A stretch of 64,000 bases of DNA, from the NCBI GenBank assembly GCA_964016885.1, contig OZ024747.1:91140001-91204000 (forward strand), given 5' to 3'. Positions 9,573-56,856 of this stretch are shown here, piece by piece. The DNA is from Eledone cirrhosa. Taxonomy: Eukaryota. The position numbers and the translations under genes are program-made. Every line of letters starts with the position of its first letter. The first letter of the stretch is position 1. Below the pieces are notes generated by a model, which saw only the letters and a list, made by a program, of their open reading frames with translations, did no database searches and was not told the DNA's origin.

Positions 9573-9764
9573 AGGAAAAAAGTCAGGACTCCGAAAGCTG
9601 AGCTCCGGCCGTTTCGACAGCTAGATCCGATCTAGTTGTCGAAACGACCGGAGCTCAGCCGTCTGGGTCCTGACTCTTTTCCTATTACCCACTCTACTAC
9701 CCTAAGTATCGAGTACTCTGGTGCGTTATGGTCCACCTGGTATCTTACCACACCTTCTTTGTTA
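9573..9764 (+). mobile_element. (TA)n-embedded fold-back element, family H (HHR 3' half at 9641-9663)
   Basis: Shared body ...CCTATTACCCACTCTACTACCCTAAGTA..TCCTTCGTTA. The 5' part 9573-9625 is an inverted copy of 9632-9684. Confidence 0.75.
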
Positions 9765-11310
9765 TATATATATATATATATATATATATATATATATATA
9801 TATATATATATATATATAGGCATATTTATCTATCTCTGTATATGTGTATGTGAGTGCACACATGTGTGTGTGTATGTGTGTATCTTTCATCGATGTCCCT
9901 TGTCACTTTTGGCATCAGAAATGCAATGAAGTAGTGAATTGGCTCAAACGACACCTCCAACTAACGACGTTATTGTTCACAAAATGCAATATATTATAAA
10001 TGAATGATTTGGTCGGCAATTTCCATTAGTGTTCAGCTGACCTGGTCAGCTACACAGACCAAAACTGATTGATCACTTTATATTTCTTATCTTTATGGGT
10101 TTTTTTTTTATAGTAGTAACAATGTATTTGAATATGTATGTATTAAGACTTGTTGCTGCATACAGTTAGTATATCTCGGTTCATATGTGTGTGTTATCAG
10201 AAAATATGTGAAATTTAAATGAATATTCGTTCTACAGAACAAGGAGATAATTAATTCCCATATGGTATTCGTTTAAAAACAGGTCTAGCCTAATCGACCA
10301 GATCTATGTTCAAAGGGGTTCCAGCAATACTCAAACCATCATTTTTAGTTATCAGGGTCCATTATATGCAGCTTAATTTGATATGTTAGGATAAGGAAAA
10401 ATGTCGTCATTAGTGGAAGTTATAAAGATGCTTGACAATAATATATTTTCATCTGTTATGTAATTTTAGAGTGGTCATCTGTAAAGGGTATTCAATGTGA
10501 GATTGACAAATAATTCCATGCAGTTTTAAAACGATTCATTTGTCCGTTGCGTATTAGTCCAGCACACCATTATTGGCTAACAAAAGAAACAGATTTTACT
10601 GTCATATACATGTGCGATGTATTTTGATTTACAGACTATGTGGAAACAGTTAAACAACTGAAACATTTGTTACTAAATAACATTGACAATAAATGTAATT
10701 ACTATAGTGTGAGATAATAAAGAACCACACGTCTGAGATAAACATATAGAATGATATATAGACTATCTTATGGAACTCTACATCACTTAAAACGTCAGTA
10801 AATAAAAAAAATATTTACAAAAGTCATGGCGTCTCAAATAAATATGCATAGCACTCTGATAGATAAGCATATTGGATTATTTATCAGAATATTTAATGAC
10901 TATATACATATCTTATACAATAGAATCTACAATATCATCTAAAATGAAAGTATTATTATAAGCAGCAAGCATCACATGAACAACAGTTAGTGACTTGTAA
11001 ATGAAGAGTGAAGTCACTAAAGTAAGTTGGTTCAACCACAAGTCATTATTTGATATATCTTCAACATCCCAAGGTATGATGTTTGCCTTCAAAATACAAT
11101 TAATAGCAGGTATGTTAGGCTTTGATTAGTGAAAGATATTGTGTCAACGATACATTTCTTTAACAAACAAAGAAAGCAAAAGAAAAACAATGGAAAGAGT
11201 GGAAAGCAAAGGTAAGATGAAAGGAGAGATTAAGATGAATGAGAGAGGAAAAAGGATGATTTATTCTCATATACTCACAGTTCCTGCTTTAAATTGCAGG
11301 AAAAGAAGGC

Positions 11311-11572
11311 ATCGCTCTCATTGATCGACAAGGTCCCAGACCTCATTCGCCTGTTGAGTGGGGTGCAACTCGTCAAATCGGACCAAGGAAACAATGTTTC
11401 CATTGGTTTTACCATTGCTTATGCTATCTGCTGGTCGTAACTCCTGACAGAGAGAGCAACGTGAAATAAAGGGTTTTGCTGAAGGACACAACGCATCCTC
11501 CGGTCCGAGAATTGAACTCACAACCTCACAATTGCGAATCCAACTCTCTAACCACTAAACCAAACGCCTTCA
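11311..11572 (-). mobile_element. tRNA-derived SINE, family B
   Basis: The minus strand has A box TGGTTTAGTGG, B box GAGTTCAATTC and TGTGTCCTTCAGCAAAACCCTTTATTTCACGTTGCTC. Confidence 0.75.
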
Positions 11573-53512: not shown

Positions 53513-54551
53513 AATTCTGAGAAATGGAGCTCCACAAAACACTTCAAATGTCTTCTGTGCACACCAACGCATATCTGATGAGATATCGGAGCGGATTTTG
53601 GCCCCAACCATTATGATCGAACTCTGAGGTAATCGATATAAAGGCAATTGTCATGTGCAATAAAGTTCATTTATGGCACAACATTGACTTGTCTCTCTTA
53701 TATATATATAATTGACTGATGAATAGCTTATGTTAATTTTAACCCTTCTGTTGACAACTCTATTCGATTTGTGATGTTTTTGCATTCTTGCAAAAATATA
53801 CACAACTGAATTTATTCGCCTCATATAGGGGCTGCCTCCCTTGCCGATCCCCACGTGGAGTCAGCAATAGTCAGTCCTTGTATTAACATTGAACTAAAAC
53901 CTGTTGAGAAAGTGGCTTCCTTGTTCAATCATCTTACCAGAAGCGTGACATTATTTATGTAAGCGGACGGTACTTGATTTAGGAGCCGCAGAAACCCAAA
54001 GACTGGATTTTACCAGCCTTCCAGGGGTCCGGGTAAATTTTCAATACCCGAATTACTTGATCGTTTTTTTGGGGGGCTATGTGAATGATTGTTTAACCAT
54101 CGTCTCAGTGTGTTTGGCGTTTAACGTTTGTTATAGCTCTGGTTCATCTGAACCATTGAACACTTGCCTCACGTCTCGGAGGTTGTTTTTCGTTATTTCG
54201 TGGGCCGAAATGCGAATCTCGATAATTTATGTTTATATATATATATAACGAAGGAGGTGTGGTAAGGAACCAGATGGACCATAACGCACCAGAGTACTTA
54301 ATACTTAGGGTAGTAGCGTGGGTAATAGGAAAACGTTTAACCCCGACGGGGTTAAACATTTTCCCATATATATATATATATATATATATATATATATATA
54401 TATATATATATATATATTGCCTTTATATCGATTACCCCGGAGTTCGATCATAATGGTTGGGGCCAAAATCCGCACCGATATCTCATCAGATATGCGTTGG
54501 TGGGCACAGAAGACATTTAAAGGGTTTTGTGGAGCTCCATTTCTCAGAATT
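53513..54551. repeat. 136-bp inverted repeat (53513-53648 and 54416-54551) with an HHR-like core, enclosing a family H copy
   Basis: The arms are reverse complements with a few substitutions; at CTGATGA gat...atc GAA ctccgggg TA at. Confidence 0.75.
54246..54365 (-). mobile_element. Family H element with a short hairpin end
   Basis: Body plus GGAAAACGTTTAACCCC-GAC-GGGGTTAAACATTTTCC. Confidence 0.8.
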
Positions 54552-56856
54552 AATAGTTTCAGAAGATCTTGTTAAGGGTGAAAGCAGCGATTCTTTGCTT
54601 AAACTTTAATCTGTTATTTTAATATATATATATATATATATATATATATATATATATATATATATATATATATATATATATATATATATTAGTTATTATG
54701 TGAGAAACTTCTTGTAACTAGCGGTGATGTTGGTCGAAGTACACGATGCTGTTACTGTGTCTGTCTTTCGATGGGTTGTGCTCCAGGTTTAAGGCGGTTG
54801 TATATAAAGTGACAATAAGAATTGCAGCTTTCTGTAAACTTTATTTCATATTACAAATAAATTATTCTATATTATTCACATATCCTGCTCTTTTTAACGC
54901 GTTGTTGTAGTATTCAGCGTTTTCATCAAATATAGCTTCATTGGCTGATATTTTATTAATTCATTTTTATTAATATTTGTATTTTAATATTAATAACTCT
55001 GGAAAATTATTTTTTGTAGAGTGCTTCCAATCTACTGTAAAACTCATTCTTTGATGTACTCTTTGAATCTTGTTTAACTCTTTTATATATATACATACAC
55101 ACACATGTATGTGTGTAAAACTCATTCTTTGATGTATTCATTGAACCTTGTGTAACTCTTAAATATATATATATATAAAGAAAATACATAAATATTATAT
55201 ATCTATATATAAATAAAAAGGTGAAAGGGGTAAACAAATAGTTGGGAATACTACAAATAATAAATAAATAAATAAATAGATAAAGGTATAAATGTTTATA
55301 GCTGATATAGAGCACTGAACAAGTTCCTGGAGCAAATAATCAATGAAAATAAACATTAAATCACTGTGTATGTAATTATGCATATACATACACATATATA
55401 TATATACACACACACACACAAAACCATACAAATACACATATATACATATATATACATACACATACTTATATATATATATATATATATATATATACATATA
55501 GAAAAAAGTATGATCCCGACAGCAGAGTTCAAGCCGTCTCTGGGGCAATTATATATATACATATATAAACATATACATATATATAAAAAAAATACACATA
55601 TACACACACACACATATCTACAAAAAGTTACATCACCACCTTAATAAAAATACACACACACCTATAAGCACACACACACACACATATATATATACATACA
55701 CACAGACATATACATACAGATATATATGAAATGCAACTATATACACACATACATATACATATATATATAATTATATATACATATATATATATATATATAT
55801 ATATATATATATATATATATATATATATATATATATATATATATATATACACACACATATATACACACATACACAACACATATATACACACAGAAATAAA
55901 TATCTATAAAAAAAAATGTGGTTATGTAAAGGGTAAGTTAGAAAGTAGGGGGGAATAAGGAAAATAAATGACATAGGGCAAAGTTTAAATATAAGGAGAG
56001 GTAAGGGAGAAAAGGAATATAAGAGTACAGAAAGTGAGTTCAGAAAGTAATAAAAATCGTAGTGGATGTAAGGCGTAGAGAGCAGAGAAGAAGTTCAAGG
56101 TGGTTGAGTCATTGTAGGAATGTCAATCCAGTTACAGATCAGATGTGATTTCAGGTGAGGACAACATCTGAAGATCTCGCTCTTGGAGTTCAGGCAAGTT
56201 GAAGTGGCTTTCAAGTTTTGTAGAATCCTAAATTTTGTATATATATATACAAATATATATATATATACAAATATATATATATACAAATATATATATATAT
56301 ATATATATATATATATATATATATATATATATATATATATATATGTATGTGTGTGTGTGTGTGTGTGTGTGTGTGTGTGTGTGTGTGTGTGTGTGTGTGT
56401 GTAAATTAATAAAAACAATGAATAAAAACAAAGAACAAGTTCTTTATATTACAAAATTCATCATTTTACGATCGTTTCTAGGATATATATATGCGCGTGT
56501 TGGTATGTATATCATATAGATCTATGTAAAATATTACAAACTATCAGAGGAAATAGATATACCTTCACATATATATGCTGTCTTCAGAAATGATGAGATT
56601 TGTTTATTGAAAAAAAAAACAACAAAGATTTAATATAATAGGTCTGTTTGGGAAGAGGTTTTGAATTGACCAATAGAAAAGTAGTAAGAGGTCAAGTTGA
56701 TAGAATAGTAGTAGTAGAAATTTAATTTAGGGGTAGAGGAGTGCAGACTTATGTTTTGAATGGAAAGAATACTTTGAATGAAAAGAATACTTTGGGGATG
56801 AAAAGAGGTCAAGCCGGTGAAAGGTACGCGAAAATTTGATGTTATTAAAGAATAAT

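What the first reader, a model, noticed from the sequence alone, without database searches (positions are those of the whole stretch)
9573..55545. Nine-copy (TA)n-embedded mini-element family H: fixed 3' end, variable fold-back 5' end around an HHR cleavage site
Seen: copies at 9573, 22952, 27627, 29593, 31553, 39358, 47914 and 54246, and a fragment at 55501. The full copies end in ..CCTTCGTTA or a close variant, running into (TA)n. At the other end they truncate or invert, each at a different point, near GAAA-CGGC-loop-GCCG-TC, which is a hammerhead stem III plus a GUC cleavage site. The stem is largely conserved while the loop varies (TTGAGCTCT, CGGAGCTCA, TTGAGCTCA) and usually keeps the palindrome GAGCTC. 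No copy includes a CUGANGA. Inference: the end of a Penelope pLTR or retrozyme whose cDNA synthesis stalls and snaps back at the ribozyme, making a different hairpin at each insertion.
Basis: partly seen in the sequence, partly recalled or inferred. Interest (0 to 1): 0.75.

Follow-up and report, generated by a model that had tools for sequence, protein, structure and literature searches.

The report
Twin-armed Penelope stubs with half hammerhead
These nine pieces are short, mostly back-to-back stubs of a Penelope-type jumping gene sitting in TA repeats, likely made when both cut ends of the target DNA copy the start of the element's RNA, which likely begins in the middle of a predicted self-cutting hammerhead, so they would be a large natural record of how this poorly understood class inserts.

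Summary
The nine loci are real. They are stubs of a Hydra-clade Penelope-like retrotransposon family, roughly 10^5 insertions in this 3.0-Gb genome. Longer copies run into an RT plus C-terminal GIY-YIG ORF and complete a type I hammerhead whose core is UUGANAA (U3-A8, a published variant), not CUGANGA.

- Both outer ends are fixed, about +21 and +100 nt after the cut site (an ~80-nt tail). 30 of 30 classified pairs join one of each.
- The variable part is the inner junction. It is not at the GUC (4 of 83 arms, 5.4 expected) but 35-47 nt upstream, inside loop II (51 of 58 arms that get that far).
- In 10 of 30 pairs the short arm holds sequence the long arm lacks, which argues against snap-back.

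Best model (inferred): both nicked strands prime on the RNA at two hairpin-marked sites and run off an RNA 5' end inside the ribozyme. No RNA data or cleavage assay was available. This scan noted the same system before on other DNA of this genome.

The parts
9572..9621 (-). Copy 1, short-ended (S) arm, subfamily B; element positions -29..+22 relative to the predicted cut site
9622..9764 (+). Copy 1, long-ended (L) arm with ~80-nt tail; -42..+101
22952..23042 (-). Copy 2, L arm; +10..+101
23044..23076 (+). Copy 2, S arm; -14..+19; reaches 24 nt further 5' than the L arm
23095..23120 (+). Extra tail-only piece (+75..+101) in the next TA run, probably a separate insertion
27627..27678 (-). Copy 3, L arm, tail only; +49..+100
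27681..27736 (+). Copy 3, S-type arm, subfamily B; -40..+17; its 3' end is replaced by a truncated L1/Tx1-like LINE
29594..29704 (-). Copy 4, L arm; -10..+101
29707..29768 (+). Copy 4, S arm; -42..+20
31553..31696 (-). Copy 5, L arm, subfamily C; about -45..+99
31699..31755 (+). Copy 5, S arm; -37..+20
39357..39500 (+). Copy 6, solo L arm, subfamily A; about -43..+101. Holds loop II 3' side, stem II 3' strand, GAAA, stem III, GUC, stem I 3' strand, S start site with its hairpin, and the tail
47914..48004 (-). Copy 7, L arm; +10..+101
48010..48050 (+). Copy 7, S arm from -27, with a degenerate end
54246..54349 (-). Copy 8, L arm; -5..+99
54350..54367 (+). Copy 8, S arm; +2..+20
55499..55540 (-). 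Copy 9, diverged solo S arm fragment; -23..+20

Best explanation
These are short, head-to-head insertions of a Hydra-clade Penelope-like retrotransposon in (TA)n, likely made by twin priming: the element's enzyme would nick both strands of a TA tract, and each 3' end would prime a cDNA on the element RNA at one of two fixed UAU sites 80 nt apart, each followed by the same predicted hairpin. Both cDNAs would run to the RNA's 5' end, likely a transcription start at about -41 inside hammerhead loop II, and be end-joined. An RNA that starts there lacks the 5' half of the ribozyme, so it could not cut itself in cis, which would explain why copies read through the GUC and never contain the core. Full-length copies would need a read-through RNA from a tandem array whose downstream hammerhead stayed uncut. 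Shown: parent ORF and clade motifs, hammerhead sequence and covariation, fixed ends, strict S+L pairing, position of the stop zone, twin hairpin sequence. Inferred: twin priming, transcription start, ribozyme activity, role of the hairpins.
For: Parent: L065 and L063 each hold hammerhead, tail, 5' UTR, ATG, RT-EN ORF, ~0.8-kb 3' UTR and a second hammerhead in one locus. Motifs RWR, DKT, YRDD, CxCX5C, IY..YIG, CxxC, CxH match the Hydra definition (PMC8557442 section 11).

Ends: 46 S arms end at +17..+23 (39 at +20/+22) and 50 L arms at +97..+107 (41 at +99/+101). 30 of 30 classified pairs are S+L; over all loci 55 of 65 pairs are S+L, 10 have one unclassified arm, none is SS or LL.

Independence of arms: S reaches at least 11 nt further 5' than L in 10 of 30 pairs. 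In L164 the S arm is about 1.4 kb and the L arm about 0.46 kb. Several junctions carry short copies of nearby arm sequence.

Stop zone: 51 of 58 arms reaching -35 end by -47; 0.123 against 0.0095 stops per nt, 13-fold. TTAGT at -43..-39 is the same in all three subfamilies while loop II is otherwise 13 of 33 columns alike; it resembles an initiator (consensus recalled). Copies linked to the ORF start show the same stop in 5 of 15.

Hairpins: the same 4-bp stem, 2-nt bulge, 4-bp stem follows both start sites, and the L hairpin lies beyond +101, outside every stub.

Precedent: in vitro a Poseidon protein cleaves and extends both strands, starts at two internal RNA sites that bound the tail, needs RNA 3' of them, and uses uncut RNA (PMC11167929).
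Against: No RNA 5'-end data. The stop zone is 13 nt wide and 17 of 51 ends map 1-6 nt upstream of -41, which is broad for one start site. The -35..-47 bin was drawn after seeing the data.

The two arms of an insertion nearly always share the linker haplotype (31 of 65 identical against 6.6% between insertions; only L021 clearly discordant), and the S+L rule is strict. Both are also what snap-back predicts.

Arm asymmetry could come from later deletion in palindromes, and very short S arms are missed by my detector, so solo L arms may hide cases of the opposite asymmetry.

24 of 120 arms were unclassified and left out. 10 of 15 ORF-start copies run past the stop zone (similarity-selected set, 3 of 30 loci dropped as mis-picked).

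The ribozyme fold is no more stable than shuffles (z -0.04 to -1.95), the G10.1-C11.1 pair is isolated by an internal loop, and Rfam finds no hammerhead in four complete loci.
Confidence: 0.6

Rival explanations
1. Twin priming as above, but the stop at -35..-47 is a roadblock: the reverse transcriptase stalls at the top of the extended stem II, at a loop II tertiary contact or at bound protein, on RNA that continues upstream.
For: The zone coincides with the 3' strand of a predicted loop II hairpin in subfamilies A and C. The conserved TTAGT could pair with the strand 5' of stem I. The zone is broad.
Against: The enzyme passes stems I, III and II at about 0.01 stops per nt. Subfamily B has a different loop II fold but the same zone. 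Only 5 of 15 ORF-start copies stop there against 51 of 58 stubs (Fisher p 5e-5; differently sampled sets).
Confidence: 0.2
2. One reading: one cDNA primed at the long end stalls at the ribozyme, folds back and copies itself until it meets the first TA microhomology with the target.
For: It explains the strict S+L pairing and the shared haplotypes without extra assumptions. The S end is usually the first TAT after -41.
Against: S exceeds L by 11-107 nt in 10 of 30 pairs, and solo S arms exist. The S site has its own copy of the start hairpin. Junctions mostly lack the apical loop and often carry templated inserts. Stops are not at the GUC.
Confidence: 0.13
3. The stubs are a self-propagating non-coding element (SINE- or retrozyme-like) copied from stub transcripts rather than by-products of ORF-bearing RNA.
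For: Stubs greatly outnumber long copies: 7 of 96 classified arms pass -47. A start site and internal promoter at -41 would lie within stubs (inferred).
Against: Every junction differs, so stubs are not copies of a master stub. The L-site hairpin is absent from stubs. No tandem arrays of the stub were seen in 1.42 Mb. Stub subfamilies A, B and C each match longer copies.
Confidence: 0.05
4. A MITE or other DNA transposon with terminal inverted repeats that inserts at TA.
For: Short, palindromic, TA-flanked.
Against: The arms are unequal, the palindrome centre moves from copy to copy, and the parent encodes RT and GIY-YIG, not a transposase.
Confidence: 0.01

Closest known systems
Hydra clade of C-terminal EN+ Penelope-like elements, e.g. 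Hydra-1_Obim and Penelope-13_HM (Craig et al. 2021, PMC8557442; passages, section 11, supplement part 2 and search hits read)
   Same: About 3-kb unit, single RT-EN ORF, RW(K/R), DKT, CxCX5C linker, CxxC and CxH, no CCHH, (TA)n target, 3' type I hammerhead, inverted 5'-truncated partner, tail.
   Different: Not Hydra-1_Obim: the protein and hammerhead differ by eye. All 26 Hydra hammerhead rows (25 families) in File S2 have a CUGA core, loop 2 of at most 10 nt and loop III of 1-3 nt. This family has U3-A8, a ~31-nt loop II and a 5-bp stem III with a 9-nt loop. The tail is ~80 nt, against 30-40 given for PLEs.
U3-A8 hammerheads: Cercyon PLEs of Schistosoma mansoni (Cervera and De la Pena 2014, PMC4209133, parts 1-2 of 4 read); natural U3/A8 covariation, active in vitro (Perreault et al. 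2011, PMC3088659, passages)
   Same: Compensatory U3-A8 core pair in a PLE pLTR; short stem I, long stem II.
   Different: Those PLE motifs are minimal, with little or no helix III. This one has a full stem III with a palindromic loop and a very long loop II, and most genomic copies start inside it.
Poseidon PAc in vitro mechanism (Frangieh et al. 2024, PMC11167929, parts 1-2 of 4 read)
   Same: Two internal RT start sites bounding the tail, both target strands cut and extended, AT-rich target, uncut RNA used.
   Different: Different clade. In the parts read, that paper does not tie one start site to each strand in a single insertion, nor report a common 5' stop. Here the start sites lie in the 5' UTR (ATG about 194 nt after the cut site), not in the ORF.
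L1 twin priming (recalled, no paper read)
   Same: Two primers from the two target strands give an inverted plus a direct arm joined internally.
   Different: Here both priming sites are fixed and the arms overlap in sequence, giving a palindrome.
Non-LTR retrozymes (bioRxiv 10.64898/2026.07.22.740005, part 1 of 5 read)
   Same: Type I hammerhead, PLE origin, non-coding pieces.
   Different: Retrozymes are tandem units each with a complete ribozyme; these stubs are inverted, half-ribozyme and have a coding parent.

Membership tests
Penelope-like element (EN+) | Single ORF with PLE-type RT and GIY-YIG endonuclease | tested here: met
   Read from broken copies: YRDD, NFLDVTL, IY..YIG; 302 homologs at E<=0.001 among 1178 candidates. 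No intact ORF in the copies seen (longest 394 aa; 1-213 aa from the ATG in 30 of 30). Pfam and PDB gave no significant hit.
Penelope-like element (EN+) | pLTR from partial tandem arrangement | tested here: met
   L065 and L063 have the hammerhead and tail both before the ATG and after the ORF.
Penelope-like element (EN+) | Inverted 5'-truncated partner and a tail at one end only | tested here: met
   30 of 30 classified pairs; tail ~80 nt.
Hydra clade | RWK-like motif, DKT instead of DKG | tested here: met
   RWR and DKT.
Hydra clade | C-terminal EN with CxCX5C linker, CxxC and CxH, lacking CCHH | tested here: met
   CNCPDRSTC, CNLC or CTLC, CKH; read by eye against section 11.
Hydra clade | Insertion into (TA)n, unit near or under 3 kb | tested here: met
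   140 of 175 tail ends run into TA; most of the rest continue into the 5' UTR (loci partly chosen for that). Unit about 3.1 kb in L063.
Hydra clade | Canonical CUGANGA hammerhead | tested here: not met
   Core is UUGANAA. A variant of a listed trait, not a reason to leave the clade.
Hydra clade | Placement in an RT tree with reference Hydra proteins | not tested
   Reference sequences were seen only in a paper supplement and were not brought into an alignment.
Neptune, Nematis or Naiad clades | CX2-5CxxC linker with CCHH (Neptune, Nematis); N-terminal EN (Naiad) | tested here: not met
Type I hammerhead ribozyme | Three stems around the conserved core with a 3-8 pair, G10.1-C11.1, GAAA and UH | tested here: met
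   14 of 14 core positions alike in subfamilies A, B, C while N7 is A, U or G. 94% of 384 cells paired; 3 stem II pairs change on both sides, all on one subfamily split.
Type I hammerhead ribozyme | Match to an Rfam hammerhead model | tested here: not met
   None among 91 hits at E<=10 in 4 loci.
Type I hammerhead ribozyme | Self-cleavage at the GUC | not testable with these tools
   No assay; no excess of copies starting at the site in this sample.
Non-LTR retrozyme | Non-coding tandem units each with a full hammerhead | tested here: not met
MITE or DNA transposon | Fixed terminal inverted repeats, transposase parent | tested here: not met
   Target-site duplications cannot be read in (TA)n.

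The most novel reading that the evidence does not exclude
The element's promoter starts transcription inside its own hammerhead, so the ribozyme is split into a harmless half at the RNA's 5' end and a complete one at its 3' end. Because the two hairpin-marked RT start sites sit just behind the 5' half, a unit-length RNA can only yield 60-145-nt twin-primed stubs, and full-length progeny need a read-through RNA whose downstream hammerhead stays uncut. The ribozyme would then be a switch between stub and full-length transposition, and one RNA (or one dimeric RNP) would be copied from both target strands with a fixed assignment of one start site per strand.
Probability: 0.35. Interest if true: 0.75.

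Novelty: new variant of a known kind. Interest (0 to 1): 0.5.

Why it matters
How Penelope-like elements form their inverted repeats and tails, and what their hammerheads do, is stated as open in PMC8557442 and PMC11167929. This family gives on the order of 10^5 tiny insertions whose three boundaries (two fixed starts, one common stop) can be counted. They make specific predictions: one start site per target strand, a hairpin signal, an RNA 5' end at about -41, and uncut template. The clade, the inverted partner, the TA target and the U3-A8 swap are all published, so the taxonomy is ordinary; the mechanistic reading is the value.

Tried and rejected
- Rfam scans: no hammerhead among the 150 listed of 248 window hits (98 lower hits not seen) or among 91 hits in four complete loci.
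- Tail-only and subfamily-C DNA searches of the genome returned nothing because the words are too common, so position-picked stretches were used.
- Sequencing runs: no RNA holder listed; no reads were laid.
- Metagenome pattern scan: 19 of 19 matches lack stem III and the GUC and are chance.
- Pfam and PDB sequence searches did not name the ORF; cluster look-up gave no names.
- Two different RNA templates per insertion: only 1 of 65 pairs is clearly discordant, and the C/T discordances are explained by query selection; not supported.
- A non-templated G opposite a cap at -42: not separable by eye from partner-arm sequence; dropped.
- Neptune or Naiad identity: first guesses, rejected on motifs.
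- Larger stretches around candidate full-length copies were not obtained, so whether an intact copy exists is open.
- No structure or complex prediction was run.
- Not found in print: this family, its hammerhead, or twin priming applied to PLEs. Repbase and Dfam entries and subscription papers could not be searched, and supplements other than that of PMC8557442 (part 2 of 59 plus search hits) were not seen.
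Full report
Coordinates below are element positions relative to the predicted hammerhead cut site (0 = first base after GUC), in the element's sense.

1. Observation. All nine places carry family sequence. Seven are two-armed, one (39358) is a solo long arm and one (55501) a diverged solo short arm. 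None contains CTGANGA. Each two-armed copy reads (TA)n, inverted arm, junction, direct arm, (TA)n. One arm ends at TTCCTA (about +21, 'S') and the other at CTTCGTTA or CTTTGTTA (about +100, 'L'). Only the junction moves. Copy 27627 has lost its right-hand TA to a truncated LINE with an AYADD RT and a zf-RVT domain.

2. Family size. The window lies in a 3.0-Gb assembly. Eighty 10-kb stretches picked at round coordinates held 34 hit clusters, 9 in the 40 from the four largest contigs and 25 in the other 40. About two of the 34 are duplicates or doubtful, and one stretch holds five. That scales to roughly 10^5 insertions. Arm-to-arm divergence within insertions is 3.0% (C), 7.7% (A) and 11.5% (B) on small samples, so three waves are present. 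The host was not determined here; earlier AI notes call it a cephalopod, which I did not test.

3. Parent. Walking upstream through G000 leads across a ~0.8-kb 3' UTR into a broken ORF. L063 and L065 each hold hammerhead, tail, 5' UTR, ATG, ORF, 3' UTR and a second hammerhead. The unit is about 3.1 kb in L063 and the ATG lies about 194 nt after the cut site. The protein shows RWR, DKT, YRDD, NFLDVTL, a CxCX5C linker, IY..YIG, CxxC and CxH and no CCHH. These are the features that define the Hydra clade in PMC8557442, section 11, whose members nearly all insert in (TA)n. It has 302 homologs among 1178 candidates, the best at 56% identity, unnamed. It is not Hydra-1_Obim, whose protein and hammerhead differ by eye. 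No intact ORF was seen: the longest open piece is 394 aa in 25 loci, and frames from the ATG close after 1-213 aa in 30 of 30 loci. No tree was built.

4. Ribozyme. Longer copies complete a type I hammerhead: stem I ACCCC/GGGGU, core UUGANAA, G10.1-C11.1, a 9-bp stem II, a ~31-nt loop II, GAAA, a 5-bp stem III with a 9-nt loop holding GAGCUC, and UC. Across subfamilies 14 of 14 core positions agree, N7 is A, U or G, and loop II agrees in 13 of 33 columns. Position 3 is T in 81 of 82 and position 8 is A in 77 of 82 complete motifs; these loci were selected by similarity, so rarer lineages may be missed. Three stem II pairs change on both sides, all on the A/B split, and 94% of cells pair. U3-A8 is published for S. 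mansoni PLEs (PMC4209133) and as an active natural covariation (PMC3088659). All 26 Hydra rows in the PMC8557442 supplement have a CUGA core and small loops. Against: folding energies are not better than shuffles, Rfam does not call it, and cleavage is untested.

5. Boundaries. The sample was 136 position-picked 10-kb stretches plus the window, 1.42 Mb. Of 120 arms, 46 were S, 50 were L and 24 were left unclassified (damaged ends, junction inserts, low scores) and dropped. All 30 classified head-to-head pairs are S+L; over all loci 55 of 65 are S+L, 10 have an unclassified arm and none is SS or LL. Inner ends: 4 of 83 arms stop at -3..+3, against 5.4 expected from the neighbouring rate; 51 of 58 arms that reach -35 stop by -47, a 13-fold higher rate (bin drawn after seeing the data). 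The mode is -41/-40. So the cDNAs read through the cut site on uncut RNA and end just after leaving stem II. In 10 of 30 pairs S reaches 11-107 nt further 5' than L; the reverse by at least 10 nt occurs once, but short S arms are under-detected and several solo L arms may be reverse cases. Junctions are blunt, share a few bases, or carry short copies of nearby arm sequence, as in end-joining (recalled). The two arms of one insertion share the variable linker haplotype (31 of 65 identical against 6.6% between insertions), so they come from the same RNA or source.

6. Start signals. Both fixed ends fall at UAU, a microhomology to the TA target. Following a lead from earlier scan notes, I checked what follows them. 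After S the RNA reads ACUC-UACU-loop-AGUA-UU-GAGU, and after L it reads GCUC-CUAC-loop-GUAG-UA-GAGC: the same 4-bp stem, 2-nt 3' bulge and 4-bp stem, 5 and 3 nt behind the UAU. The L hairpin lies in the 5' UTR, beyond the end of every stub. If it is the signal, L arms cannot come from stub transcripts or from the 3' end of a single-unit copy.

7. Mechanism. PMC11167929 shows in vitro that a PLE protein cuts and extends both strands, starts at two internal RNA sites that bound the tail, needs RNA 3' of them and uses uncut RNA. With that, the simplest reading is twin priming at S and L on RNA that begins at about -41. TTAGT at -43..-39 is conserved in all three subfamilies and resembles an initiator (recalled); PLE promoters lie in the pLTR (PMC2377424, passages). 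Such an RNA lacks the 5' half of the ribozyme and could not cut in cis. Among 27 copies linked to the ORF start (3 of 30 dropped as mis-picked), 15 reach -35; 5 stop at -36..-40, 10 run on into tandem sequence, and one other starts exactly at 0. The roadblock and snap-back rivals remain open at lower odds.

8. Novelty. The clade, TA targeting, inverted partner, tail and U3-A8 are in print. This family, its long-loop U3-A8 hammerhead, the 80-nt tail, the strict S+L rule and the stop inside loop II were not found; repeat databases could not be searched. My reading was fixed before I opened earlier scan notes. Those notes describe the same system on other DNA of this genome, in part probably the same family; they are not independent support. 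One reports about a thousand copies starting at the cut site, which would be about 1% of 10^5 and below what my sample can detect.

Verdict: a new variant within a known clade, ordinary as taxonomy and useful as a natural record of PLE insertion. Interest 0.5.

Noticed in passing
window 27737-29410 (+): 5'-truncated L1/Tx1-like LINE (AYADD RT, zf-RVT E 5.5e-7, one in-frame stop) joined directly to the S arm of copy 27627; a related fragment lies at about 46510-47120.
   Followed up: partly
window 13812-14546 (-) and 43478-44323 (-): ORF fragments of other Hydra-like PLE families (CNCNC..CPL linker, FLNPPFN, ISYSTTPN), AT-rich and distinct from this family.
   Followed up: no
window 15292 (-), 31367 (+), 32071 (+), 42817 (+), 39765-39831, 61172-61343: Canonical CUGANGA...GAAA minimal hammerhead-like motifs, two of them in inverted pairs; probably ends of other PLE families.
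   Followed up: no
L164 3361-5296 and L178 1-1042: Young subfamily C has a longer and different 3' UTR than subfamily A; L164 is a 1.9-kb two-armed insertion with a 1.4-kb S arm and a 0.46-kb L arm.
   Followed up: partly
L174 4715 and 5632, L179 7792: Some tail-bearing arms end in (TA)n at other TAT sites (+47, +66), suggesting occasional priming by microhomology alone or later loss.
   Followed up: no
L302: One ORF-linked copy starts exactly at the predicted cut site; possibly copied from a cleaved RNA (1 of 27).
   Followed up: no
window 37465-38291; 2438-3058; 49933-50197: Tandem arrays with 44-nt, 71/123-nt and 48-nt units.
   Followed up: no
window 36221-36291 (+): tRNA-like Rfam hit (32.9 bits), possibly a SINE head.
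   Followed up: no
supplement of PMC8557442, Hydra-2_aMil: Its sequence 3' of the hammerhead also runs into CTTCGTTA, the motif at this family's long end.
   Followed up: no
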